From assembly GCA_934167485.1 (NCBI GenBank), contig CAKPKL010000007.1, forward strand, positions 12,186 through 76,185: a DNA stretch of 64,000 nt, read 5' to 3'. Under the pieces are notes generated by a model. That model ran no database searches and was not told the origin of the DNA. It saw only the letters and a list, made by a program, of their open reading frames with translations. The DNA comes from an uncultured Bacilli bacterium (GTDB lineage: Bacteria; Bacillota_I; Bacilli_A; RF39; UBA660). The translations under genes and the position numbers were made by a program. Positions 17,833 through 62,912 of the stretch are shown piece by piece. How positions within the stretch are numbered: position 1 is the stretch's first letter; the number at the start of each line of letters is the position of its first letter.

Positions 17833-19788
17833 ATGGATAATAATGTAAGAGCTGAATTAATAAAAATATTAGCAAGTGGAAATAGTATTCCAGAAACATA
17901 TAAAGATATTATTTTTCCAACTATAAATAAGGAATATGAATTATCTTATGCAGGAAAAATGAGAGCCGAAGATGTATTATCTTGCAATGATGGTGTTTAT
18001 TCTATGCCACTGCAAATTGAAAAATCATTTAAAACAGATGAATCAGAGTGGAATAACATAATATGTTTTGGGGACAATTTACAATTGTTAAAAACAATTA
18101 ATGAGAATGTTGATCCAATCATAAAAGACAAAGTAAAAGGTAAAGTAAAATTAATATATATAGATCCACCATTTGCAACTGAAGATGAGTTTAAAAATAA
18201 AGATGGTGCTAAGGCATATAATGATAAAGTAAAGGGTGCTGATTTTATTGAATTTATGCGTAGAAGATTAATTCTAGCAAAAGAAATATTAGCGGATGAT
18301 GGTTCAATATTTGTTCATTTGGATATGAAAATGAGTAATTATATAAAAATAATATTAGATGAGGTTTTTGGTAAAAATAACCTATTAAATGAGATTATTT
18401 GGCATTTTAGAACATATCAAGGGCAAACAGACAAGTATTATCCAAGAAAGCATAATGTTATATATTGGTATAAAAAGAAAAATAATCCTACTTTTAAATT
18501 AGATTATGATGATGATTATGAAGATACTGTTGATGCTGAAAGATGGAGAAAATATGTTGTTAATGGTAATGAAATACGTGGTAATAAATTTCCAAAATCT
18601 GATTCTAGATTTAAGGGATATTATGATAGATTTGTTAAAGAACACGGAAGAAAGCCAAATAAAGATGACATAATAATGAAAATAAATGGATATGTTGTAG
18701 ATGATGTTTGGGTTGACATAAATGCGGTAGACCCTAAAGACAAAATTGAAAAAACAGGATATCCGACTCAAAAACCTGAACAATTGTTAAGAAGAATAAT
18801 TGAAACAACTACAGAAAAGGGAGATTTGATATTTGATTTCTTTGGGGGATCTGGTACAACTTCAGCTGTTGCTGAAAAATTAGGAAGACGATGGATAACG
18901 TGCGATTTAGGAAAGTTATCATATTATACAATCCAAAAAAGAATTATAAATATAGGAAATTCAAAAGACTTGTTTGATCCAACAAAAAAATATAATAAAA
19001 ATCCAAGTAATTTTATAACTTGTCAATTAGGATTGTATGATTTAAATTCAGTAATTAATCTTCCATGGGAACAATATGTGGAATTTGTTTCTGATTTGTT
19101 TGAAATTAAGTTAAAAAAGAATAAGGTAAATGGAATCGAATTTGATGGAACAAAAAATTTAGAACCAACTTTAATATGGGATTTTAATAAGTATAAAGAT
19201 GTTATAATTGATGAAAATTATATTAATAACTTAAATCTTAATTTAGCAAATAAGTATGAAGGTAATATTTATATAGTAGCTCCAGCAAATTGTTTTGATT
19301 TCATTGAGGATTACTATGAAATTAATAATAATAGATACTACTTTTTGAAAATACCTTATCAGATTATAAGAGAATTGCATAAAGTGCCTTTCAAAAAGAT
19401 ATTACAGCCTAATAGTAAAAATAATGTTAATAGTATTGATGAATCTATTGGTTTTCATTTCATTAAGCAACCTACTGTTAAGAGTAAAGTTACTAAAAAG
19501 GACAATGAATTATTAATTTCACTTAAAGAGTTTAAGAGTTATTATTATAAGGATGAAGACGGAAAAATATTAAAAAATTTTGAAACACTATCTGCAATGT
19601 TTGTAGATTATGATTATCATGAACCATTTATTATTGACGATGTTTTTTTTGCAGATGAATTTAAAAAAGAATCTGACAATCTCGTAATAAAAGTTAACAC
19701 CAAAAAAATTGGCAAAAAAATAATGCTAATTTATGTTGATATTTATGGTAATGAATTTAAAGAAATTATTCAGTTAGGTGGTAAATAA
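17833..19788 (+). CDS. mod: Type III R-M DNA methyltransferase (Mod), beta-class N6A/N4C
   Basis: Motif IV LIYIDPPF lies before motif I FDFFGGSGTTSAVAEKLGRRWI. The length (651 aa) and the adjacent res gene fit. Confidence 0.85.
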   Translation: MDNNVRAELIKILASGNSIPETYKDIIFPTINKEYELSYAGKMRAEDVLSCNDGVYSMPLQIEKSFKTDESEWNNIICFGDNLQLLKTINENVDPIIKDKVKGKVKLIYIDPPFATEDEFKNKDGAKAYNDKVKGADFIEFMRRRLILAKEILADDGSIFVHLDMKMSNYIKIILDEVFGKNNLLNEIIWHFRTYQGQTDKYYPRKHNVIYWYKKKNNPTFKLDYDDDYEDTVDAERWRKYVVNGNEIRGNKFPKSDSRFKGYYDRFVKEHGRKPNKDDIIMKINGYVVDDVWVDINAVDPKDKIEKTGYPTQKPEQLLRRIIETTTEKGDLIFDFFGGSGTTSAVAEKLGRRWITCDLGKLSYYTIQKRIINIGNSKDLFDPTKKYNKNPSNFITCQLGLYDLNSVINLPWEQYVEFVSDLFEIKLKKNKVNGIEFDGTKNLEPTLIWDFNKYKDVIIDENYINNLNLNLANKYEGNIYIVAPANCFDFIEDYYEINNNRYYFLKIPYQIIRELHKVPFKKILQPNSKNNVNSIDESIGFHFIKQPTVKSKVTKKDNELLISLKEFKSYYYKDEDGKILKNFETLSAMFVDYDYHEPFIIDDVFFADEFKKESDNLVIKVNTKKIGKKIMLIYVDIYGNEFKEIIQLGGK

Positions 19789-19789
19789 A

Positions 19790-22375
19790 ATGAATAACGA
19801 TGCAAATTTAATATTTAATTTAGATGATTTAATTTTAAAGGTTAATCATTATTACGATACATCAAAATATAATTTAGAAGTTTGGGAAAACTATTTGAAC
19901 ATATTAACAGAAGGAAGAACATATCAAAAGGAAGCTATTTTATCGGCTATTTATTACTTAATAGATGCAAATGTTCCAGATTTGAAGACTCTTGCATATA
20001 ATAATTTTAATCAAAATCAATATTTAAAAAGCAAATATAATAATAACTTCTATGAGTTTGAATCTAATCTACAACTTCCTAGCAAAAAATATGCTACCAT
20101 TGATTTGGCAACAGGAACAGGTAAGTCATACGTTCTGTATGGTATCTCTCAAATACTTTTAGGAATAGGTTTTGTGGAAAGAGTTTTATTATTATGCCCA
20201 TCAACAACAATAGAATATGAGTTAACAAAGAAATTCAAAGAATTAAGTCAAAATAATGTGTTGTCTGATTTAATACCAGAGGAAGCTATTATAAAAACAC
20301 CAAGAATAGTAGATGCTAATGTTTCTGTAAAATTAGGAGATATATGTATTGAAAACATTCATTCGGTATACGAAAACACAGGGTCTTCTATTGATGATAG
20401 TTTTACAGGTACAGGAATAAATACTCTTGTATTAAATGATGAAGCACACCATATATTTAATAATGTTAGTTATTCAGGTAGAAATGAAACAAGTGAATTA
20501 AAGAAATGGAAAGAGTTTTTGTTAAACGACAAATACAACTTTCAATATGTGATTGGAACTACTGGAACGGCATATATTGAAAATGAGTATTTTTGTGATG
20601 TTATATATAGATATTCATTAAACAAAGCAATAGAAGATAGGATTGTAAAAAACATTAATTATGTATTGAAGGACGATGAAATAAGTGAAAATGAAAAATT
20701 CACTAAAATATATCAAAATCATAGTGATTATAAAAAATTGTATTCTAAAATAAAGCCTATAACTATTTTTGTAACAAAAGATAAACAAAATTGTAATAGT
20801 GTTACAAATAAATTGAAAGATTATTTGAAAAAGTTTGAAAACATTACAGATGAAGAAGCTGATAAAAAAGTATTAATAGTTACATCAGCTCCTGAACACA
20901 AAAATAATGTAGCAATACTAAGAAGTGTTGATAATAGTGATAATGATGTTGAATGGATAGTATCTGTATCGATGTTAACAGAAGGCTGGGATGTAAAAAA
21001 TGTATTTCAAATTGTTCCATGGGAAGATCGTGCTTTCAATTCTAAATTATTAATTTCACAAGTTTTAGGAAGAGGTTTAAGAATTCCTAAAGAATACCAA
21101 ACTCCACAACCAGTTGTAACAATATTCAATCATGCGTCATGGACTAAAAATATCAGAAGTTTTGTTGACCAAATATTAGAGATATCAGATAGAATAACTT
21201 CAAATATAATTATAGAAGGAAAAAGAGCTAAATATAATTTTGATTTATATAATATCAATTATGAGAAGGCACTTATAGAAAAAGAACATAAAAAGAATAA
21301 AACCTTTGATTATAGCAGAATGCAAAAAGAAGGAATAAAACTTGAATCTCAGGTATTGAAATATAACAAAGTTGTTGAATTCACAGACGTTTTAGAAAAC
21401 AAAATTATTGAAAAACAATTTGAAATCAACGAAGAAACTTATACGGTTGATGAGGTTGTTGACAAGATATATGATGAGTTTCAACTGAGAGAATGGGAAG
21501 GCATTACTTTAAAACTTGGTTTAGAGAAATATACAAAAAATAATTTACCGCCTAGAGATGAGATTAAGAAAATTGTTTTAAATTCAATGAAAAAAGTTGG
21601 AATAGATGGAAAACTTTTAACAATAAAAAACAGAAATTCAATATTAAAAGCATTTAATACTCTTTTAAGACAAAATGGTAAAACTGTAGAATATATTAAT
21701 ATTGAGAAAGATTTAGAAATTGTTAAAACTAATGTAATGGCTTCTCAAAGTACAAATATTCTTAATTTAAAAAGAGGAGAAACAACAATTTTTCATACAA
21801 ATGAGTGGAAACAAGAAGTTGATAATAAAAACTTAATTGTTTTTGAAAAGGTACTTGATGATGGAACAATGCCACGACAATCTACGCATGAGGTAAATAT
21901 CAATAATTTCAAAACTCCTGTTGATTTAGTAATTGTAAATGGATCTCCAGAGAGAAAATTTGTATCACAACTAATTGAAAATAATAATGCTAACATTATT
22001 GACTCGTGGATTAAATCTAGAGATAAGAATTTTTATTCAATTGATTATACTTGGAGAAAAAACGGGCATCAAATGTCAAATTCAGCATTCAATCCTGATT
22101 TTTTCATAAAACTAACTGAAGATGGTATTGATACTATTGTTGTAGTTGAAATTAAGGATGATGGTGATGATAGTGATGAAAATAAGGCTAAGTATAGATA
22201 TGCTTTAGATCACTTTGAAAATTTAAATGAAAAGTTAGAAAATAGTGGTATAAATCAAAAATACATTTTTCACTTCTTAAGTCCAATATCATATAATGCA
22301 TTTTTTGAATACTTAGGAAACCATAAAATAGAACAATTTAAATGTGATTTAGAAAACTTATTAGAAGAAAATTAG
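19790..22375 (+). CDS. res: Type III restriction enzyme Res subunit (helicase plus C-terminal PD-ExK nuclease)
   Basis: DLATGTGKS (motif I), LNDEAHH (DEAH), TEGWDV, and the C-terminal NPDFFIKL...VVVEIKDD. The ATG at 19790 follows the mod stop by 1 nt, with RBS aggtgg. Confidence 0.85.
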   Translation: MNNDANLIFNLDDLILKVNHYYDTSKYNLEVWENYLNILTEGRTYQKEAILSAIYYLIDANVPDLKTLAYNNFNQNQYLKSKYNNNFYEFESNLQLPSKKYATIDLATGTGKSYVLYGISQILLGIGFVERVLLLCPSTTIEYELTKKFKELSQNNVLSDLIPEEAIIKTPRIVDANVSVKLGDICIENIHSVYENTGSSIDDSFTGTGINTLVLNDEAHHIFNNVSYSGRNETSELKKWKEFLLNDKYNFQYVIGTTGTAYIENEYFCDVIYRYSLNKAIEDRIVKNINYVLKDDEISENEKFTKIYQNHSDYKKLYSKIKPITIFVTKDKQNCNSVTNKLKDYLKKFENITDEEADKKVLIVTSAPEHKNNVAILRSVDNSDNDVEWIVSVSMLTEGWDVKNVFQIVPWEDRAFNSKLLISQVLGRGLRIPKEYQTPQPVVTIFNHASWTKNIRSFVDQILEISDRITSNIIIEGKRAKYNFDLYNINYEKALIEKEHKKNKTFDYSRMQKEGIKLESQVLKYNKVVEFTDVLENKIIEKQFEINEETYTVDEVVDKIYDEFQLREWEGITLKLGLEKYTKNNLPPRDEIKKIVLNSMKKVGIDGKLLTIKNRNSILKAFNTLLRQNGKTVEYINIEKDLEIVKTNVMASQSTNILNLKRGETTIFHTNEWKQEVDNKNLIVFEKVLDDGTMPRQSTHEVNINNFKTPVDLVIVNGSPERKFVSQLIENNNANIIDSWIKSRDKNFYSIDYTWRKNGHQMSNSAFNPDFFIKLTEDGIDTIVVVEIKDDGDDSDENKAKYRYALDHFENLNEKLENSGINQKYIFHFLSPISYNAFFEYLGNHKIEQFKCDLENLLEEN

Positions 22376-34512: not shown

Positions 34513-34698
34513 TTTTACGTAAAAAAAGTAAAATATAGATACAGTAAAAAAACGGATTGAAATTTCAATTCTTTTTTAGTATAATGAGTATAGTTAGTAT
34601 AAGAAGGTAGGTATAGAAATGAGGGGGCTTTGGCAACTATTTAGACCACTTTTACAGAGGGTATCTTACCCCAAAGTATAAATAGAAAGAAGAATAAT

Positions 34699-36041
34699 AT
34701 GAAAAAAGGATTTACATTAATAGAACTTTTAGCGGTTATAGTAATACTTGCAATCATCGCACTTATAGCCACACCAATAGTATTAGATATAATAGACAGT
34801 AGCAAAAAAATAGCAATATCAGAAGTGCTGAAATATATATGGATGCAGTAAAAACAACTTTAACTAAAAACCAATTAGATGGTAAGATATTGAATGATGG
34901 TTTTTATAGTATAAGTGAGGTAGATATTAAATTAAATGGAGATAAACCTAGTATGGGTTATTTTGAAATTAGAAATGGCAATGTAGAAAGATATAATGTA
35001 ACAATAAATAATCAGGAAATTGATAGTGAACAGTATGATGTTTGGAATGGTATAGAAAAATCTATACTTGAAGATAATAACTCATATTATATAAACACAT
35101 CTAGTGAATTAGCCTGGATATCTAATGAAGTAAATAATGGCAATAAATTTGAAGGAAAGATTATTTATTTGAACAATAATTTAGATTTAAATAATAAAGA
35201 ATGGACACCAATAGGAAATAGTGATAATAAATTTTTAGGTACATTTGAAGGTAACAATCATATTATTAAAAATCTTTATATAAATGATGAAAATCAAACT
35301 AAAACGAAACAAGGCTTGTTTGGTGATTTTGATGGTACTTTAAATAATTTGATATTAATTAATGTTAAAATTACTTCGCAAAGAGTAATAGGTGCATTTG
35401 CAGGAGGTTCTAGAGAAAATGCTAAATTTAATAATTTATTACTCTATAATGCATATTTGAAAGGAAAAATTGATGATATGACTGATGCAAAATATGGATA
35501 TTCTATGGGAGGAATAGTAGGTCAGTTTTCATCTGATATATATAATTCTAAAGTAATTAATTTAGATATAGAAGGTTCATCATATTTAGGAGGATTAATT
35601 GGTAGAGGAGTTATAAGTGATAGTACAAAGAAACAACAGGTAGTAATAGATAACTGTGAAGTAATAGATTCCAAAATATATTCAAATGGTTCAATTGGAA
35701 ATCAATTTAATTTTTCGAGAACAGGTGGTTTAGTAGGCCAAGCAATGAATTCATTAATAACAAATTCTAGATCTTTTGCTACAATTAATTCAAAATATTC
35801 TACTGTAGGAGGGTTTATAGGTGAAAGCTATACTTCGATTGTAGAAAACAATTATTCAAATTCTAAAATAAGTTCAGAATCAGAAGATGATTTGGGTTAT
35901 TTTATTGGTTATGTTAAAGATACGCAAATAATAAATAATATTATAGATTCTAAAAGTACTATAAATAATGTAGAGACTTTAGAAGATAAATTAGTAGGTA
36001 CTAACATAGAAAGCACATTAGAAGGCAATTTGATAAAATAA
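34699..36041 (+). pseudogene. Prepilin-type N-terminal domain protein with GLUG-motif repeats, interrupted by a frameshift at an A7 tract (34804-34810)
   Basis: The ATG at 34699 encodes MKKGFTLIELLAVIVILAIIALIATPIVLDIIDSSKK, then stops at 34849-34851. One extra A would join it to the 34839-36041 frame, giving ...SKKNSNIRSAEIYMDAVKTT. That parallels DSKNSSIKRSIELYADAVENS in the paralog at 58543. GGLIG/GGLVG/GGFIG/GGIVG repeats follow. Confidence 0.75.
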
Positions 36042-57737: not shown

Positions 57738-58282
57738 TGAAAATAAGACTTGCAGCAGATTTACAAGAAGATAGTATAGTTGATGGAAATGGTATAAGGA
57801 CAGTTATATGGACTCAAGGTTGTTCTCATAATTGTCCTTCTTGTCATAATCCATCAACACACTCTTTTGATGGAGGAGAACTTGTAGATGTAGAAGATGT
57901 AATAGAAAGAATAGAAAATTTATCTAATCAAGATGGAATTACATTTTCAGGTGGAGACCCTATGTTTCAAGCAAAAGCTTGTTCAATTATAGCTAAAAAA
58001 ATACACGAGTTAGGTATGAATGTTTGGGCATATACAGGTTTTACATTTGAAGAATTATTAGATAAAGGAAATAAAGAAATATTAGATTTTTTAAGAAATA
58101 TAGATGTCCTTATAGATGGAAAATTTGAACTTTCTAAAAAAAGTTTGGATATTAAATTTAGAGGTTCAACTAATCAAAGAGTAATTGATGTTCCAAGTTC
58201 TTTAGAACTACATAAAGTAGTTGAAATAGATATAGATTCTAAAAATATAAAGGAACAAAAAAAAGAAGTAATATATATATAG
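57737..58282 (+). CDS. nrdG: Anaerobic ribonucleotide reductase activating protein NrdG (radical SAM)
   Basis: GCSHNCPSCHNP (CxxxCxxC) and GGDP. The ATG overlaps the stop of the 56-aa ORF. Confidence 0.9.
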   Translation: MKIRLAADLQEDSIVDGNGIRTVIWTQGCSHNCPSCHNPSTHSFDGGELVDVEDVIERIENLSNQDGITFSGGDPMFQAKACSIIAKKIHELGMNVWAYTGFTFEELLDKGNKEILDFLRNIDVLIDGKFELSKKSLDIKFRGSTNQRVIDVPSSLELHKVVEIDIDSKNIKEQKKEVIYI

Positions 58283-58316
58283 GTAGTAGTAATACTATCT
58301 TTTGATTACAAAAATA

Positions 58317-58345
58317 TTGACAAATAGCACATAAAAATATATACT
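58317..58345 (+). promoter_or_regulatory. Sigma-A-type promoter TTGACA, 17 nt, TATACT, giving a ~190-nt leader for the DGR target gene
   Basis: Read directly from the sequence. Confidence 0.55.
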
Positions 58346-58451
58346 AAATATAGTAAAGGTAGTGGTAGTATATGGAGATATCATTAAGAAAAATTAATAA
58401 AAATAGCGCGGGGATATCTAGTTATACTATAATACCATTAGGATACATAAT

Positions 58452-58497
58452 ACAAAGATCTAGAGGATAAAACTTTAGGTTTCTTTGTGTTTTTTTT
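58452..58497 (+). terminator. Terminator-like hairpin plus U-tract inside the leader (possible attenuator or riboswitch expression platform)
   Basis: ACAAAGA/TCTTTGT outer stem and CTAGAG/CTTTAG inner stem, followed by GTTTTTTTT, about 45 nt before the RBS aaggagg. Confidence 0.45.
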
Positions 58498-58542
58498 GTA
58501 TATCTTTACAAGAGTGAAACAAAATAAAGAAGGAGGAATAAT

Positions 58543-59664
58543 ATGAAAAGAAAAGGTTTTACTTTAATAGAGTTATTAGCAGTCATAGTAATACTAGCTA
58601 TAATCGCATTAATCGCAACACCAATAGTACTAGATATAATAGAGGATAGTAAAAATTCTAGTATAAAAAGAAGTATAGAATTATATGCAGATGCAGTAGA
58701 AAATTCAGTAGCAAAAGCACAATTAAATGGGAATGCTGTACCAAGTGGAAAGTATACGACAACAGATGGTAAAACATTAACAAACGGAAATACAACAATA
58801 AAAGTAGATTATGATGGAGCTAAAACAGTATGTGAAGTAAATATAACAAATAATGGAGAAGTATCACTAAAGAATTGTAAAGTAAATGGTAAAGCAACAG
58901 AATATACATACGGGAAAGATGAAGATACAAATAATAAGACATACACAAATGGAGAAGTAGTATATTTCAATGTAGATAATGGAACAAAATGTTCAAATTA
59001 TACAGAAACTCAAAGTAATACAGGAACAAAGAGTGGCTGTATGAAATTCTATGCATTCAATGATGATGGAAAAGATACAGTAAATTTAATTTTAGATCAC
59101 AATACAACAGCAGAAGTTCTTTGGAATTTAACAGTAAGTACTGCATCAGGTCCAAAAGAAGTATTGAATCAGTTAAAAAAAGATACAACATCATGGCAAG
59201 GAACAATAACACCGGAGAATTATTCAATAGATCAATCAGAACAAGGTAGTGGAGTAAAATATGCAGTAGATTATAGTGATTATAAAGCAAGATTGATTAC
59301 AGCACAAGAAGTGGCACAAATCACCGGAAATACAACCTTTGATGAAAAAACATCAAGTTCAATATTTTACTTTGATACAAATACAACTACTGAAAGTAAA
59401 ACATGTAAATATGGAAATACAACAGGATGTAAGTATGGATGGTTATATGATAGAACAACTGATGATTGTACAAAATATGGATGTTTAAATAATTCAGATA
59501 AAAAAACATATGGATATTGGACAGCCTCTTCTCGTGCCGGCGACTCTGCCTACGCTTGGAATGTGTACTACAACGGCGGCACCTTGACCACTGGCTACGT
59601 CGGCGGTGCCCACAGCTACGGCGTTCGCCCAGTTATAACTATCTTAAAATCTAAACTCTCATAA
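58543..59664 (+). CDS. Prepilin-type N-terminal domain protein with a C-terminal DUF1566/CLec-like variable domain (DGR target-like)
   Basis: MKRKGFTLIELLAVIVILAIIALIATPIV (class III signal / N-methylation motif). The C-terminus is YWTASSRAGDSAYAWNVYYNGG...YGVRPV, with a GC-rich final ~100 nt. Confidence 0.85.
   Translation: MKRKGFTLIELLAVIVILAIIALIATPIVLDIIEDSKNSSIKRSIELYADAVENSVAKAQLNGNAVPSGKYTTTDGKTLTNGNTTIKVDYDGAKTVCEVNITNNGEVSLKNCKVNGKATEYTYGKDEDTNNKTYTNGEVVYFNVDNGTKCSNYTETQSNTGTKSGCMKFYAFNDDGKDTVNLILDHNTTAEVLWNLTVSTASGPKEVLNQLKKDTTSWQGTITPENYSIDQSEQGSGVKYAVDYSDYKARLITAQEVAQITGNTTFDEKTSSSIFYFDTNTTTESKTCKYGNTTGCKYGWLYDRTTDDCTKYGCLNNSDKKTYGYWTASSRAGDSAYAWNVYYNGGTLTTGYVGGAHSYGVRPVITILKSKLS
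59529..59632 (+). repeat. DGR variable-region-like repeat (VR) at the 3' end of the target gene
   Basis: Homologous to 59899-59999. Over the first ~40 nt all 6 mismatches fall where the downstream copy has A. It is locally GC-rich in an AT-rich genome. Confidence 0.7.
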
Positions 59665-59898
59665 AGAGTTTTGAAAGACATAGTTGAAGAATAAAAAAGA
59701 AAAGATGAAGAAAATAAAATAGATGAAAAGGTAAGTCGAACTAGTTCGGCTTGTCATAGGCAAAAATCTTTAGTTTTTGCCGTTGGGGGTGTCCGATTTG
59801 GAACAAATCGGCGACTAATAAATGAAAAAGGTTATAAATGTTAATGACATTTTATAATTGGGATAACTCTGATATATTAGGCTATTTTTGTAGATGGT

Positions 59899-59999
59899 TT
59901 CTCGTGCCGACAACTCTAACAACGCTTGGAATGTGAACTATGATGGTAACGTGAACAACAACAACGTTGACAATTCGGACAACTATGGTGTTCGCCCAG
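59899..59999 (+). repeat. DGR template-region-like repeat (TR), non-coding and AAC-rich
   Basis: In the VR frame, 10 of 33 codons are AAC. It shares its ends (TTCTCGTGCCG... and ...GTTCGCCCAG) with the VR. Confidence 0.7.
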
Positions 60000-60231
60000 A
60001 TTTCCTTTTAAACCTAGATTTATAAACCTAATGGTGATAAAGAATGGAATTGGAAAACAAGCTTTATTCTATCTATTTGAAAGAGTAGAAAAAAACTATA
60101 TCATAGATGATTATAATTATTAGTAAAACTTTTGAATTTAATTATAATCTATAAACTATGATTTTTATTTTAAGGAGCGTGATATTTTAAATTAATTTGT
60201 AGTATGTTGTATGTTGTAAGATGGAGGTATT

Positions 60232-60651
60232 ATGTTAAAAGATGTATATAATAAATATAAACTTATTTATAAAAATTATATAATACTAATTAGAAATGGT
60301 AATTTCTATTTAGCTTTAAATGATGATTCAATCGTTTTGAATAATATATTTAAATTTAAAATAATAGAATTAAAAAATTTTATTAAATGTGGTTTTCCGC
60401 TAGATTCTATTTATAAAGTAACAGATACATTGGATGATTTGAATATAAACTACTTAATTTATGATAATAATATAACTCATAAAAAGAAATATACTACTAA
60501 TAATTATTTAAAATATATCAATAAAAGTAATTATATATTATTAAAAAAAATAGATAATATTAATAATATATTAAAACTTAATATCAATAGCACGCATATT
60601 AACAATATAATTAACGATATAGAAGGTATTTTGTGCAAGATAGATTGTTGA
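60232..60651 (+). CDS. MutS domain-I-like small protein (DGR accessory 'MSL'-type candidate)
   Basis: YNKYKLIYKNYIILIRNGNFYLALNDDS...GFPLDSIYKVTDTLDDLNINYLIYD parallels the MutS N-terminus (Y..LK...P..ILF.R.GDFYE.F..DA...GIP......L...G..V.I.E). Confidence 0.55.
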   Translation: MLKDVYNKYKLIYKNYIILIRNGNFYLALNDDSIVLNNIFKFKIIELKNFIKCGFPLDSIYKVTDTLDDLNINYLIYDNNITHKKKYTTNNYLKYINKSNYILLKKIDNINNILKLNINSTHINNIINDIEGILCKIDC

Positions 60652-60896
60652 TTGTAACAAAAATAAAAAAAACTATAGAATATGTAGATAAAGTACTAAT
60701 TAATTATCCTAAGGTAGAATATACTCTTAAAAATAATATAATTAGTACTTTTTATTTGTTATTAGAAAATATATATAGAAGTAATATATATAAGGATACT
60801 ATATATATGAAAGAAAGTATTGTTAATATTAAAATGATTGAATATTATATTAAGATTAGTTTAGATAAAAAAATAAAAAGTCAAATTAAAAAGTAA
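60633..60896 (+). CDS. Avd-like (four-helix-bundle DGR accessory) protein, apparently truncated
   Basis: LLIVTKIKKTIEYVDKVLINYPKVEYTLKNNIISTFYLLLENIY follows the Avd pattern. At 87 aa it is shorter than typical. The frame continues after two stops (K*RS*KKYVNLIDASNRINRVKI*). Confidence 0.5.
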   Translation: MQDRLLIVTKIKKTIEYVDKVLINYPKVEYTLKNNIISTFYLLLENIYRSNIYKDTIYMKESIVNIKMIEYYIKISLDKKIKSQIKK

Positions 60897-61180
60897 AGGT
60901 CTTGAAAAAAATATGTAAATTTGATAGATGCTAGTAATAGAATAAATAGAGTAAAAATTTAACAAATCCCCTTTAAATTATCATAACTAAGTTCACGTTA
61001 GATAAGAAACGGGAAGTTAAATAAAAATTTTACAAATACTATCTTTTTCTTGCAATTTTTTTAAAATTGTGTATAATAAAGAACACTTGAGAAAAATTTA
61101 TTAAACACATATATTATTTTTGTCTGTTTTTAAATATATAAAAATATTTACATATATGATATAATTAAATTGGTGATAAT

Positions 61181-61651
61181 ATGAAAAAGGGATTAAAAAA
61201 TGTGATTTTTTTTGGAATGATATTCTTAATATTGGATCAAGCTGTAAAAATATTTATAAATAGTAGATTTGTACTTGGTGAAGCATATATATTAATAAAT
61301 AATTTATTGAGTATATTGCTTGTACATAATACAGGTGCAGCTTTTAGTATATTAAGTGGTAATCAAGTATTTTTAGTTATAATAGGAATACTTGCTTTAG
61401 TAGCGCTTTTATTATTTGTATATCAAGGTGATAATTATAGTGACTATGAAATATTTGCTTACTCATTATTATTTGGTGGAATACTTGGTAATTTAATAGA
61501 TAGAATATTTTATGGATATGTAATAGATTTTATAAGTTTAACATTTGTAGGTTATAACTTTCCAATATTTAATATAGCTGATATGTGTATAGTAGCAAGT
61601 GTTATACTAATTATAATAAAAGTAATAAAGGGAGATTTATGGAGAGAATAG
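61181..61651 (+). CDS. lspA: Lipoprotein signal peptidase II
   Basis: NTGAAFS and FPIFNIADMCI motifs, with 4 TM segments. Confidence 0.9.
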   Translation: MKKGLKNVIFFGMIFLILDQAVKIFINSRFVLGEAYILINNLLSILLVHNTGAAFSILSGNQVFLVIIGILALVALLLFVYQGDNYSDYEIFAYSLLFGGILGNLIDRIFYGYVIDFISLTFVGYNFPIFNIADMCIVASVILIIIKVIKGDLWRE

Positions 61652-62541: not shown

Positions 62542-62912
62542 TGTCAATAATAGAAATTAAAAGAAAACATGAACTAGAATTAGCTCTAGAAGGTGTTAAT
62601 TTACCTAAGTGTTATAAAGATGAAGTATCAGAAAATACTAGAATACAATTATTAAGTTATATCATGGATACAGGACTTCCAGTAGAAGAAGTAAACTATT
62701 TAGTTAAAGCATATTATATGCCTTATGAAGATATTAAAAATGATACAGAAATCTATAATAGCCTAGACCAAACAATACAAATTAATTTCTTGGTTAGTTT
62801 ATGTAAAAAGTATAGTGCTAAACCAAAGACTATATTAAATAGAATTAAAGAAGTAAATGCAATTAATGTATATAGAAAAAAATCAAAACAATTTGTAAAA
62901 GGTAATAAATAA
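62541..62912 (+). CDS. Hypothetical protein (123 aa)
   Basis: ORF translationally coupled to rluD (ATG overlaps the stop). Confidence 0.5.
   Translation: MSIIEIKRKHELELALEGVNLPKCYKDEVSENTRIQLLSYIMDTGLPVEEVNYLVKAYYMPYEDIKNDTEIYNSLDQTIQINFLVSLCKKYSAKPKTILNRIKEVNAINVYRKKSKQFVKGNK

What the first reader, a model, noticed from the sequence alone, without database searches (positions are those of the whole stretch)
59529..59999. DGR-type variable/template repeat pair, but with non-adenine differences, a 3-nt length difference and a strikingly GC-rich VR
The last ~104 nt of the pilin-like gene (VR) are repeated 370 nt downstream in a non-coding, AAC-rich copy (TR, 10 AAC among 33 codons). Both are bounded by the shared ends TTCTCGTGCCG and GTTCGCCCAG.

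Over the first ~40 nt all 6 mismatches are at TR adenines (gac aac tct aac aac / aac versus ggc gac tct gcc tac / tac). That is the hallmark of DGR mutagenic retrohoming.

In the second half many mismatches again sit at TR adenines. But there are also T-to-C type differences at non-A positions (tat/ggt/gtt versus tac/ggc/gtc) and a one-codon length difference. Present-day TR could not have produced these.

The VR is therefore either the product of a different (lost) template or has been frozen long enough for TR to drift. The VR is one of the most GC-rich stretches in the window.
Basis: partly seen in the sequence, partly recalled or inferred. Interest (0 to 1): 0.7.

Follow-up and report, generated by a model that had tools for sequence, protein, structure and literature searches.

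The report
Decayed, mosaic DGR cassette lacking reverse transcriptase
The repeat pair is a real remnant of a diversity-generating retroelement that once rewrote the tip of a pilin-like surface protein, but this copy has lost its reverse transcriptase and recombination has stitched it together from unrelated alleles, so the template no longer matches the variable region.

Summary
VR 59529-59632 and TR 59899-59999 share both ends. A formal alignment gives 17 mismatches at TR adenines, 11 at other bases, and a 3-nt indel. All 6 mismatches in the first 41 nt are at adenines. The VR is the most GC-rich 104 nt of a 24.6 % GC window.

This is a DGR cassette of the MutS-like (MSL) + Avd type. Its target is a type IV pilin-like protein with a DUF6273-type C-terminus. 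Close relatives (97-98 % identical over TR-MSL-avd) carry a full avd and a DGR-type RT. Their VR/TR mismatches are almost purely at adenines, and every sample has a different VR.

In the window avd is cut at about residue 81 of 111 and the RT is gone. The TR is a chimera: its first ~30 nt and the upstream spacer come from one cassette lineage, the rest from another. The VR arrived with a foreign C-terminal domain module whose 3' part is nearly DNA-identical (0-3 differences in 66 nt) in every other genome and locus where I found it. That explains the non-adenine mismatches. The GC-richness follows from NNC codons, the product of adenine mutagenesis of AAC codons.

The cassette sits on a 2.7-kb strain-variable island. 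It is an ordinary, decaying member of a known kind.

The parts
58304..61047 (+). 2.74-kb strain-variable island that carries the whole cassette remnant. It is flanked by a 13-bp direct repeat AATACTATCTTTT (58291-58303 and 61035-61047).
   Evidence: Strains with an identical LspA have nrdG followed directly by lspA and a single copy of the repeat (L039-L041, L043, L045, L046).
58543..59664 (+). Target gene, 373 aa. It has a prepilin-type N-terminus (cleavage/methylation motif plus alpha-1 helix) and a C-terminal DUF6273/Lcl_C-like domain that ends in the VR.
   Evidence: Pfam N_methyl E 5e-8, with weak DUF6273 and Lcl_C hits. NCBIfam IV_pilin_GFxxxE. Profile versus PDB matches type IV pilins over residues 2-60. 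The AF2 model has pLDDT 87. Foldseek against BFVD finds DUF6273 proteins at E 1e-5 to 8e-3. Across 75 homologues the column entropy averages 2.1 bits in the VR against 0.9 in the rest of the domain.
58936..59665 (+). 'G-type' C-terminal domain module, imported by recombination.
   Evidence: It is 95 % identical to L035 and 90 % to L034, with the same left and right boundaries in both. It is only 60-80 % identical to the C-type allele in otherwise ~100 % identical strains. The same module is found in at least four other genomic contexts without any adjacent TR.
59529..59632 (+). Variable region (VR), allele A.
   Evidence: The identical allele occurs in 5 further metagenome contigs (L003, L005, L009, L011, L012). 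The 3' 66 nt differ at 0-3 bases (four variable sites) among the six G-type alleles compared (window, L006, L015, L019, L034, L035).
59620..59632 (+). Conserved GC-rich 3' end of the VR (GGCGTTCGCCCAG), an IMH-like element. VR and TR diverge immediately after it (TTATAAC versus ATTTCC).
   Evidence: Its function is inferred from the Bordetella phage DGR paradigm and was not tested.
59665..59898 (+). VR-TR spacer with three stem-loops (about 59732-59815). It derives from the L037-type cassette lineage.
   Evidence: It is 95-98 % identical to the RT-bearing cassette L037 and unrelated to the spacer of L031/L001. RNA fold energy is -46.9 kcal/mol, z = -2.4.
59899..59999 (+). Template repeat (TR), a chimera. 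Bases 59899 to ~59931 are L037-like. From 59932 on the TR is L031-like.
   Evidence: The homology switch between A-type and C-type strains lies at 59916, inside the TR.
60000..60135 (+). Conserved non-coding element directly 3' of the TR. It is a candidate functional 3' extension of the TR RNA.
   Evidence: It is conserved in all cassette lineages compared. It stays attached to the TR even where the TR lies after the RT (L020). A role like the Bordetella 'Sp' region is inference only.
60232..60651 (+). MSL (MutS-like) accessory gene, 139 aa, intact here.
   Evidence: Pfam MutS_I E 6e-4, 20.5 bits against a cut-off of 20.6. Only 13 homologues were found in 5.8 billion proteins, and six of them carry a precomputed MutS_I hit. 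Wherever the flanks are present the homologues sit next to Avd and RT. The gene is broken in some strains (L042, L044, L047).
60633..60896 (+). Truncated avd, 87 aa. Residues 1-81 match the 111-aa Avd of relatives; the last helix is missing.
   Evidence: Pfam bAvd E 3.5e-5, profile positions 1-80 of 107. NCBIfam DivGenRetAVD positions 1-79 of 104. 100 % identity to the L031 Avd over 78 aa, then divergence.
60879..60894 (.). Deletion junction. The 3' end of avd and the whole RT gene (and whatever followed it) are missing from here on.
   Evidence: Homology to RT-bearing cassettes ends at 60876-60894. tblastn of three cassette RTs against the window finds nothing at E <= 1e-3. No Y[AVIMCL]DD motif lies in any open frame longer than 150 codons.

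Best explanation
The locus is a remnant of a diversity-generating retroelement (DGR) with MSL and Avd accessory genes. The intact ancestral form is target gene with VR, then TR, MSL, avd, RT. In that form the TR is transcribed and an error-prone RT copies it with random bases opposite adenines. The cDNA then overwrites the VR at the C-terminus of a type IV pilin-like protein, changing the binding surface of its DUF6273-type domain.

Three things have happened to the copy in this window.

(1) A deletion removed the last ~30 codons of avd and the entire RT. The cassette cannot diversify on its own.

(2) Homologous recombination at conserved sequence islands made the locus a mosaic. The spacer and the first ~30 nt of the TR come from one cassette lineage (L037-like). 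The rest of the TR, MSL and avd come from another (L031-like). The C-terminal domain of the target gene, including the VR, is a third, widely shared 'G-type' module.

(3) As a result the VR and the 3' two-thirds of the TR have no template-product relationship. This gives the 11 non-adenine mismatches and the extra codon. The 5' 41 nt still look cognate, with adenine-only mismatches.

The high GC content of the VR is the normal footprint of adenine mutagenesis of AAC codons (NNC codons) in an AT-rich genome.

Shown: anatomy, RT loss, chimerism, module sharing, and the behaviour of RT-bearing relatives. Inferred: the order of events, and that the VR is now essentially frozen.
For: Cassette identity. 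MSL, Avd and a prepilin/DUF6273 target are present.

Intact relatives. L027-L033 are 96.7-98 % identical to window 59913/59916-60894. They continue with a full 111-aa Avd and a 350-368-aa RT carrying PIGNMSSQ and YMDD. L024 and L037 have the same architecture.

VR/TR tallies in RT-bearing cassettes (adenine/non-adenine mismatches): 16/0, 17/2, 16/0, 18/0, 15/0, 18/0, 13/0. L037 also shows adenine-only mismatches by inspection.

Activity in relatives. Samples with no other differences across most of 5 kb differ at 10-25 VR positions.

Tallies in RT-less loci. Window 17/11 plus a 3-nt indel. Allele B 12/11 plus the indel. C-type 19/5 plus an indel. L013 18/16.

Independent RT loss. L013 is an L037-type locus in which MSL-Avd-RT (2.1 kb) has been precisely deleted.

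Mosaic map. Against L001 the window is ~100 % identical up to ~58300 and 87-97 % up to ~58800. It is 60-80 % identical from ~58800 to 59700 and about half or less across the spacer. It is ~100 % identical again from 59916. The spacer is 95-98 % identical to L037. From 59950 on the window is 97-100 % identical to L031/L001 and only ~70 % to L037.

G-type VR. Its 3' 66 nt are nearly DNA-identical (0-3 differences) in six alleles from other species and loci that have no adjacent TR; P0018 adds a seventh context at protein level.

Stability. Allele A is seen in 6 sequences, B in 4 and C in 4, from different samples.

Further decay in the same species. Empty-site strains exist, and some strains have a broken MSL, a mutated TR end or no TR at all.
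Against: I could not read the rest of the genome, so an RT acting in trans is not excluded.

Alleles A and B differ at 5 VR positions against 5 in the other 2.4 kb, about a 23-fold enrichment. All five lie at TR-adenine positions. This looks like limited DGR-type change, or TR-to-VR gene conversion, after the present chimeric island formed. 'Frozen' is therefore not absolute.

The true template of the G-type VR was not found, so 'imported module' rests on sharing and boundaries, not on an identified donor.

The order of events cannot be fixed from these data.

The C-type lectin fold of the target domain was not confirmed against solved structures.
Confidence: 0.8

Rival explanations
1. The DGR is active and served in trans. 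An RT (with a full Avd) encoded elsewhere in the genome uses a second template that matches the G-type VR, or uses the local chimeric TR but can only rewrite the 5' ~41 nt that remain homologous.
For: Related genomes carry several pilin-like paralogues with VR-like ends and no nearby TR, which fits one DGR serving remote targets.

A and B alleles differ at five TR-adenine positions in otherwise 99.8 % identical islands. P0135 is an intermediate allele.

In RT-bearing L027 and L028, whose VR carries a 3-nt insertion relative to the TR, only the part 5' of the insertion differs between samples. This hints that heterology can confine rewriting to the 5' side.

RTs 60-70 % identical are common in related 'Bacilli' MAGs.
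Against: The window has no RT and its avd is truncated.

No template compatible with the G-type VR was found in GTDB representative genomes, JGI metagenomes or IMG/VR.

The same VR allele recurs unchanged in 4-6 independent contigs, whereas every RT-bearing sample has a unique VR.

The G-type 3' VR is nearly invariant across species.

MSL and the TR are decaying in sister strains.
Confidence: 0.15
2. The VR was written by this TR, and the TR (or the VR) then drifted by ordinary point mutation after the element became inactive.
For: The RT is missing, so drift is expected eventually. One non-adenine mismatch (ggt versus ggc at the 3' end) coincides with a TR difference from RT-bearing relatives.
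Against: Right of the crossover the TR differs from the L031 TR at one base only.

The VR 3' part is nearly DNA-identical (0-3 differences in 66 nt) in genomes whose copy of the module is 5-10 % diverged from the window's.

Eleven substitutions plus a codon indel within 60 nt contrast with 0.2 % divergence in the flanks.

The sequence identity profile shows sharp switches typical of recombination, not a gradual decline.
Confidence: 0.03
3. The downstream copy is just a decayed tandem duplicate of the gene's 3' end, unrelated to retroelements.
For: Both ends are shared, and a 43-aa ORF covers the TR.
Against: The copy is AAC-rich. It carries a conserved 135-nt 3' element and is followed by MSL and avd. 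It is 97-98 % identical to the TR of cassettes with a DGR RT in which the VR differs only at adenines.
Confidence: 0.01

Closest known systems
DGRs with MutS-like (MSL) and Avd accessory genes: 'Architecture D' of Wu et al. [quoted passage not shown]
   Same: It has the same component set in relatives: target with a C-terminal VR, an AAC-rich TR, a small MutS-domain-I-like protein, Avd, and an RT with IGxxxSQ and YxDD motifs. Relatives show adenine-only VR/TR differences. The target is a surface-filament subunit with a variable ligand-binding tip domain, in a gut bacterium.
   Different: The host is a very AT-rich Firmicute. A related metagenome-assembled genome (MAG) is labelled 'uncultured Bacilli'. 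The target has a type IV (prepilin) N-terminus rather than a type V pilin fold. I found no paper in the held library that describes this target class. The gene order is target-TR-MSL-avd-RT. The window's copy lacks the RT, has a truncated avd, and has a TR that does not match its VR.
DUF6273-domain DGR targets of Faecalibacterium prophages (PMC11792537)
   Same: The VR maps to the C-terminal end of a DUF6273-type domain. The closest fold matches are phage DUF6273 proteins.
   Different: Those are phage tail or decoration proteins on prophages. Here the domain is fused to a prepilin N-terminus on the chromosome, with no phage genes nearby.
Bordetella phage BPP-1 DGR (mtd-VR / avd / TR / brt), the mechanistic paradigm
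   Same: There is a VR/TR pair with a shared GC-rich 3' end followed by immediate divergence (like IMH versus IMH*). There is an Avd, and a conserved non-coding stretch next to the TR that may correspond to 'Sp'.
   Different: The gene order differs and there is an extra MSL gene. The target fold was not confirmed as a C-type lectin (CLec) fold against the PDB. The window's copy is non-functional on its own.
Pilin antigenic variation by gene conversion from silent cassettes (Neisseria pilE/pilS); analogy from general knowledge only
   Same: Pilin-like genes with many paralogous copies exchange C-terminal modules by homologous recombination at conserved islands.
   Different: No silent promoterless cassettes or a G4-dependent mechanism were seen here. 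The exchange is inferred from mosaic identity profiles between strains and species, not within a clone.

Membership tests
Diversity-generating retroelement (DGR) | A reverse transcriptase of the DGR clade (IGxxxSQ motif, YxDD) encoded in or near the cassette | tested here: not met
   The window has no RT. No YxDD motif lies in any long frame, and tblastn with three cassette RTs finds nothing. Relatives L027-L033, L024 and L037 carry it, with PIGNMSSQ and YMDD. The rest of the genome could not be read.
Diversity-generating retroelement (DGR) | A TR/VR pair whose differences are (almost) only at TR adenines | tested here: inconclusive
   Met for the first 41 nt (6 adenine, 0 non-adenine; p = 4e-4). 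Not met for the remaining 60 nt (11 and 11, plus a 3-nt indel). Met cleanly in RT-bearing relatives with 0-2 non-adenine mismatches.
Diversity-generating retroelement (DGR) | The VR lies at the C-terminus of a target protein with a variation-tolerant (CLec-type, DUF1566 or DUF6273) domain | tested here: met
   The VR covers the last 45-11 codons. There are weak Pfam DUF6273 and Lcl_C hits in the window protein, and some homologues carry precomputed PF19789 hits. Foldseek finds phage DUF6273 proteins. DUF6273 is a published DGR target domain (PMC11792537). A CLec fold was not confirmed against the PDB.
Diversity-generating retroelement (DGR) | Accessory variability determinant (Avd) | tested here: inconclusive
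   Present but truncated. 87 aa match profile positions 1-80 of 107 and are identical to the first 78-81 aa of the 111-aa Avd of relatives. Whether it still functions was not tested.
Diversity-generating retroelement (DGR) | Adenine-position hypervariability of the VR among closely related genomes | tested here: not met
   Allele A occurs in 6 sequences, B in 4 and C in 4, each unchanged. A and B differ at only 5 positions, though all five are at TR adenines. In RT-bearing relatives every sample has a unique VR. Within-sample read data were not available.
MSL-containing DGRs (Architecture D, Wu et al. 2018) | A small MutS-domain-I-like protein encoded together with avd in the cassette | tested here: met
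   The 139-aa ORF hits MutS_I at E 6e-4, 0.1 bit below the Pfam cut-off. Six of its 13 homologues carry a precomputed PF01624 hit. It is always adjacent to Avd, and to the RT where flanks are available.
Type IV pilins / pseudopilins | An N-terminal prepilin cleavage/methylation motif followed by a hydrophobic alpha-1 helix | tested here: met
   The protein begins MKRKGFTLIELLAVIVILAIIALIA. Pfam N_methyl E 5e-8 and TIGR02532 E 3e-8. The family profile matches solved type IV pilins over residues 2-60. The AF2 model has a helix at residues 8-61. Assembly into a filament was not tested.

The most novel reading that the evidence does not exclude
The G-type VR may be a 'locked-in winner'. In this reading DGR adenine mutagenesis produced a binding-site sequence (nearly all NNC codons), which was then fixed and spread between species and between paralogous pilin-like loci as a domain module. 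Loss of the RT or a mismatched template would protect it from being overwritten.

Linked to this, heterology (an indel) between TR and VR may confine later rewriting to the 5' side. The RT-less satellite cassette would then still be tuned at a handful of 5' adenine positions by an RT acting in trans. That would point to a cDNA integration mode that replaces patches between homologous anchors, rather than the 3'-anchored mode described for phage BPP-1.
Probability: 0.15. Interest if true: 0.6.

Novelty: new member of a known kind. Interest (0 to 1): 0.35.

Why it matters
The window's copy is a decayed DGR and carries no new mechanism.

Its value is as a worked example. A VR/TR pair with non-adenine mismatches and an indel need not mean an odd RT or template drift. 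It can arise when recombination joins a VR and a TR of different ancestry after the RT is lost. DGR-finding pipelines that anchor on the RT miss such remnants. Pipelines that anchor on repeats may mis-score them.

The wider family is a natural series. It comprises MSL-Avd-RT cassettes that diversify type IV pilin-like proteins in very AT-rich gut Firmicutes. Intact, RT-less, MSL-less, TR-less and empty-site states all occur among close relatives. This could be used to study how DGRs are lost, how diversified binding sites become fixed, and whether indels restrict retrohoming to part of a VR.

Tried and rejected
Template search. I looked for a template matching the G-type VR with a pattern that allows 'VR base or A' at each position. 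It found nothing in JGI metagenomes when a TR-type 3' flank was required, and nothing in IMG/VR viral contigs. A looser VR/TR 3'-end pattern on GTDB representative genomes returned only two loci, L013 and L014, and neither holds such a template.

Rfam. A scan of 58200-61300 at E <= 1 gave only a chance snoRNA hit. The spacer hairpins and the TR-flanking element therefore belong to no described RNA family.

Structure. Foldseek of the full-length AF2 model against the PDB gave no hit at E <= 0.001, so I do not claim a C-type lectin fold. A profile search against PDB sequences matched only the pilin N-terminus.

Candidate templates rejected. The TRs of L013 and L037 each leave about 11 non-adenine mismatches and the extra codon (inspection).

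An 865-aa ORF at 19778-22375 might have been polA and allowed a species comparison with the RT-bearing contigs. tblastn with their PolA found nothing in the window. I therefore could not decide whether the RT-bearing and RT-less cassettes belong to the same species.

Organism name. Looking up cluster members gave no names or accessions.

Deletion end. The 140 nt between the truncated avd and the right direct repeat match none of the RT-bearing cassettes fetched. They match only an upstream region of another pilin-like gene (L017, 79 %). The far end of the deletion is therefore undefined.
Full report
**1.

The VR (59529-59632) forms the last part of a 373-aa gene (58543-59664). It is repeated 370 nt downstream as a non-coding, AAC-rich TR (59899-59999) with the same 11-nt start and 10-nt end.

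- The shared 13-mer GGYGTTCGCCCAG occurs nowhere else in the window, against 0.05 expected by chance.
- A gapped alignment gives 17 mismatches at TR adenines, 11 at other bases and one 3-nt gap.
- In the first 41 nt all 6 mismatches are at adenines (p = 4e-4). In the rest the count is 11 versus 11 (p = 0.08).
- The VR is 63.5 % GC in a 24.6 % GC window and is the most GC-rich 104-nt stretch.

**2. What surrounds it**

- The target protein begins with a prepilin cleavage/methylation motif and a long hydrophobic helix (Pfam N_methyl, TIGR02532). A profile of 75 homologues matches solved type IV pilins over residues 2-60.
- The C-terminal domain gives weak DUF6273 and Lcl_C hits. An AlphaFold model (pLDDT 87) finds phage DUF6273 proteins in BFVD but nothing in the PDB. 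DUF6273 is a published DGR target domain with the VR at its C-terminal end (PMC11792537).
- Across homologues, column entropy peaks in the VR at the codons that are AAC/AAT in the TR.
- Downstream of the TR lie a 139-aa MutS-domain-I-like ORF (MSL, 60232-60651) and an 87-aa bAvd/DivGenRetAVD-like ORF (60633-60896). MSL is a known DGR accessory gene (PMC5758913; bioRxiv 10.1101/2024.11.15.621889).
- No reverse transcriptase is present. No YxDD motif lies in any long frame. lspA follows at 61181.

**3. Intact relatives show what the cassette was**

MSL has only 13 homologues among 5.8 billion proteins. Wherever their flanks are available they sit in target-VR-TR-MSL-Avd-RT cassettes.

- Loci L027-L033 are 96.7-98 % identical to window 59913/59916-60894. 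They continue into a 111-aa Avd and a 350-368-aa RT.
- That RT carries the DGR hallmarks PIGNMSSQ and YMDD and matches RVT_1.
- The window's Avd is identical to theirs for 78-81 residues and then diverges. Homology ends at about 60879-60894.
- tblastn with three of these RTs finds nothing in the window.
- The window has therefore lost the end of avd and the whole RT.

**4. RT-bearing and RT-less cassettes behave differently**

| Locus | RT | Adenine mismatches | Non-adenine mismatches | Indel |
|---|---|---|---|---|
| L024 | yes | 16 | 0 | none |
| L027 | yes | 17 | 2 | 3-nt insertion in VR |
| L028 | yes | 16 | 0 | 3-nt insertion in VR |
| L029 | yes | 18 | 0 | none |
| L030 | yes | 15 | 0 | none |
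| L031 | yes | 18 | 0 | none |
| L032 | yes | 13 | 0 | none |
| Window (allele A) | no | 17 | 11 | 3 nt |
| Allele B | no | 12 | 11 | 3 nt |
| C-type (L001) | no | 19 | 5 | 3 nt |
| L013 | no | 18 | 16 | none |

- L027 and L028 show that one-codon length changes can arise in this family.
- RT-bearing samples with no other differences across most of 5 kb differ at 10-25 VR positions.
- L013 is an L037-type locus from which MSL-Avd-RT (2.1 kb) has been cleanly deleted, so it is an independent RT loss.
- In the RT-less lineage, allele A recurs unchanged in 6 sequences, B in 4 and C in 4, from different samples.

**5. Why VR and TR disagree: the locus is a mosaic**

- Strains carrying a different target allele (C-type, L001) are ~100 % identical to the window up to ~58300 and 87-97 % up to ~58800. 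Identity falls to 60-80 % from ~58800 to 59700 and to about half or less across the spacer. It returns to ~100 % from 59916 on, which is inside the TR.
- A four-way alignment shows that the VR-TR spacer and the start of the TR (59639 to ~59931) are 95-98 % identical to the RT-bearing cassette L037 and unrelated to L031/L001.
- From ~59950 the window is 97-100 % identical to L031/L001 and only ~70 % to L037. The TR is therefore a chimera, with the crossover between 59925 and 59932.
- The C-terminal domain with the VR (58936-59665) is a third piece. It is 95 % and 90 % identical to copies in L035 and L034, with the same boundaries in both.
- That module occurs in at least four other genomic contexts without an adjacent TR: next to TetR, LepA and NifU genes.
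- Its VR 3' part (66 nt) differs at only 0-3 bases across the six G-type alleles compared (four variable sites in all).
- Right of the crossover the TR differs from the L031 TR at one base only, so TR drift explains at most one of the eleven non-adenine mismatches.

**6. The GC-richness is not anomalous**

- 22 of the VR's 34 codons end in C. TAC, GGC, ACC, GTC, GCC, CAC and AGC are all one or two adenine substitutions away from AAC.
- Other VRs of the family are 50-61 % GC in 25-30 % GC genomes.

**7. The cassette sits on a variable island**

- Strains with an identical LspA have nrdG followed directly by lspA.
- Compared with them, the window has 2,744 extra bases (58304-61047) bounded by a 13-bp direct repeat, AATACTATCTTTT.
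- Sister strains show further decay. In L042 and L044 MSL is broken by stop codons and the TR end is mutated (CCCAA). In L047 the TR and the MSL 5' end are deleted.
- The same island left end (58312) also appears in a different upstream context (L012).

**8. What remains open**

- Alleles A and B differ at 5 VR positions against 5 in the remaining 2.4 kb. All five lie at TR-adenine positions, and four of them make allele B identical to the TR. P0135 is an intermediate allele.
- This could be old DGR activity, TR-to-VR gene conversion, or low-level activity of an RT acting in trans.
- L027 and L028 (RT-bearing, with a VR indel) differ only 5' of the indel. This hints that heterology can confine rewriting to one side.
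- The template that produced the G-type VR was not found.
- I could not read the rest of the genome.

**9. Verdict**

This is a genuine but decayed DGR of a known architecture (MSL + Avd) with a type IV pilin-like, DUF6273-type target. The unusual VR/TR relationship comes from RT loss plus recombination, not from an unusual mechanism. Interest is modest.

Noticed in passing
window 34697-36041: A second prepilin-like gene. Its N-terminus (MKKGFTLIELLAVIVILAIIALIATPIVLDII...) is about 75-80 % identical at the DNA level to the target's 5' end. The frame hits a stop after ~50 codons and continues in another frame as a 400-aa ORF with an unrelated C-terminal domain and no VR-like end. It is probably frameshifted.
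   Followed up: partly
window 58291-58303 and 61035-61047: A 13-bp direct repeat, AATACTATCTTTT, bounds the 2.74-kb island. The left copy is the 3' half and T-run of the nrdG terminator hairpin (GGTAGTAGTAATACTATCTTTT). A similar hairpin follows the ORF that ends at 62912. Terminator-like sequences may serve as recombination sites for the cassette.
   Followed up: partly
window 60000-60135; L020 9950-10110; L024, L027, L031 equivalents: About 135 nt directly 3' of the TR are conserved in all cassette lineages. They stay attached to the TR even where the TR lies after the RT (L020-L022). There is no Rfam match. This is a candidate priming or recognition element of the TR RNA.
   Followed up: partly
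window 59732-59815; L013 and L037 equivalents: Three consecutive stem-loops lie in the VR-TR spacer (fold z = -2.4). They are conserved in the L037/L013 lineage and absent from the unrelated spacer of the L031/L001 lineage. Their function is unknown.
   Followed up: partly
L027 2050-2157 and L028 700-807: In two RT-bearing samples the VR carries a 3-nt insertion relative to the TR within the (AAC)4 run. The 47 nt 3' of it are identical in both samples, while 10 adenine positions 5' of it differ. Diversification appears confined to the 5' side of the indel.
   Followed up: partly
L020-L022 (L020 8001-10111): A more distant lineage (76 % identical) has the order target-VR-MSL-Avd-RT-TR. Its RT is split into 50-aa and 294-aa ORFs, its TR 3' end (GTTTGCTCAG) differs from the VR's (GTTCGCCCAG), and three samples share one VR. 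This may be another decaying cassette.
   Followed up: no
P0002, P0003, P0005, P0007 (540-578 aa); L019 111-1709: Some family members carry two tandem DUF6273-type domains, each ending in its own VR-like segment (...GVRPVIEVLKSKL). They lack the standard prepilin N-terminus.
   Followed up: no
L027 4677-5723, L031 3789-4628, L032 3145-4287: RT-bearing cassettes next to polA carry a second pilin-like target gene directly after the RT. L027's copy has its own shorter VR.
   Followed up: no
L011 and L012 contig ends (window equivalents 59959 and 59965): Metagenome contigs repeatedly break inside the (AAC)n run of the TR. This is an assembly effect of the VR/TR repeat and hides what lies downstream in those strains.
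   Followed up: no
L014 (CAVEJT010000050.1, 2009 nt): A 2-kb contig with a C-type VR/TR pair (17 adenine, 1 non-adenine mismatch) is binned in a genome labelled Bacteroidaceae. Its 25-30 % GC cassette sequence is 97 % identical to the window's, so it is almost certainly mis-binned.
   Followed up: no
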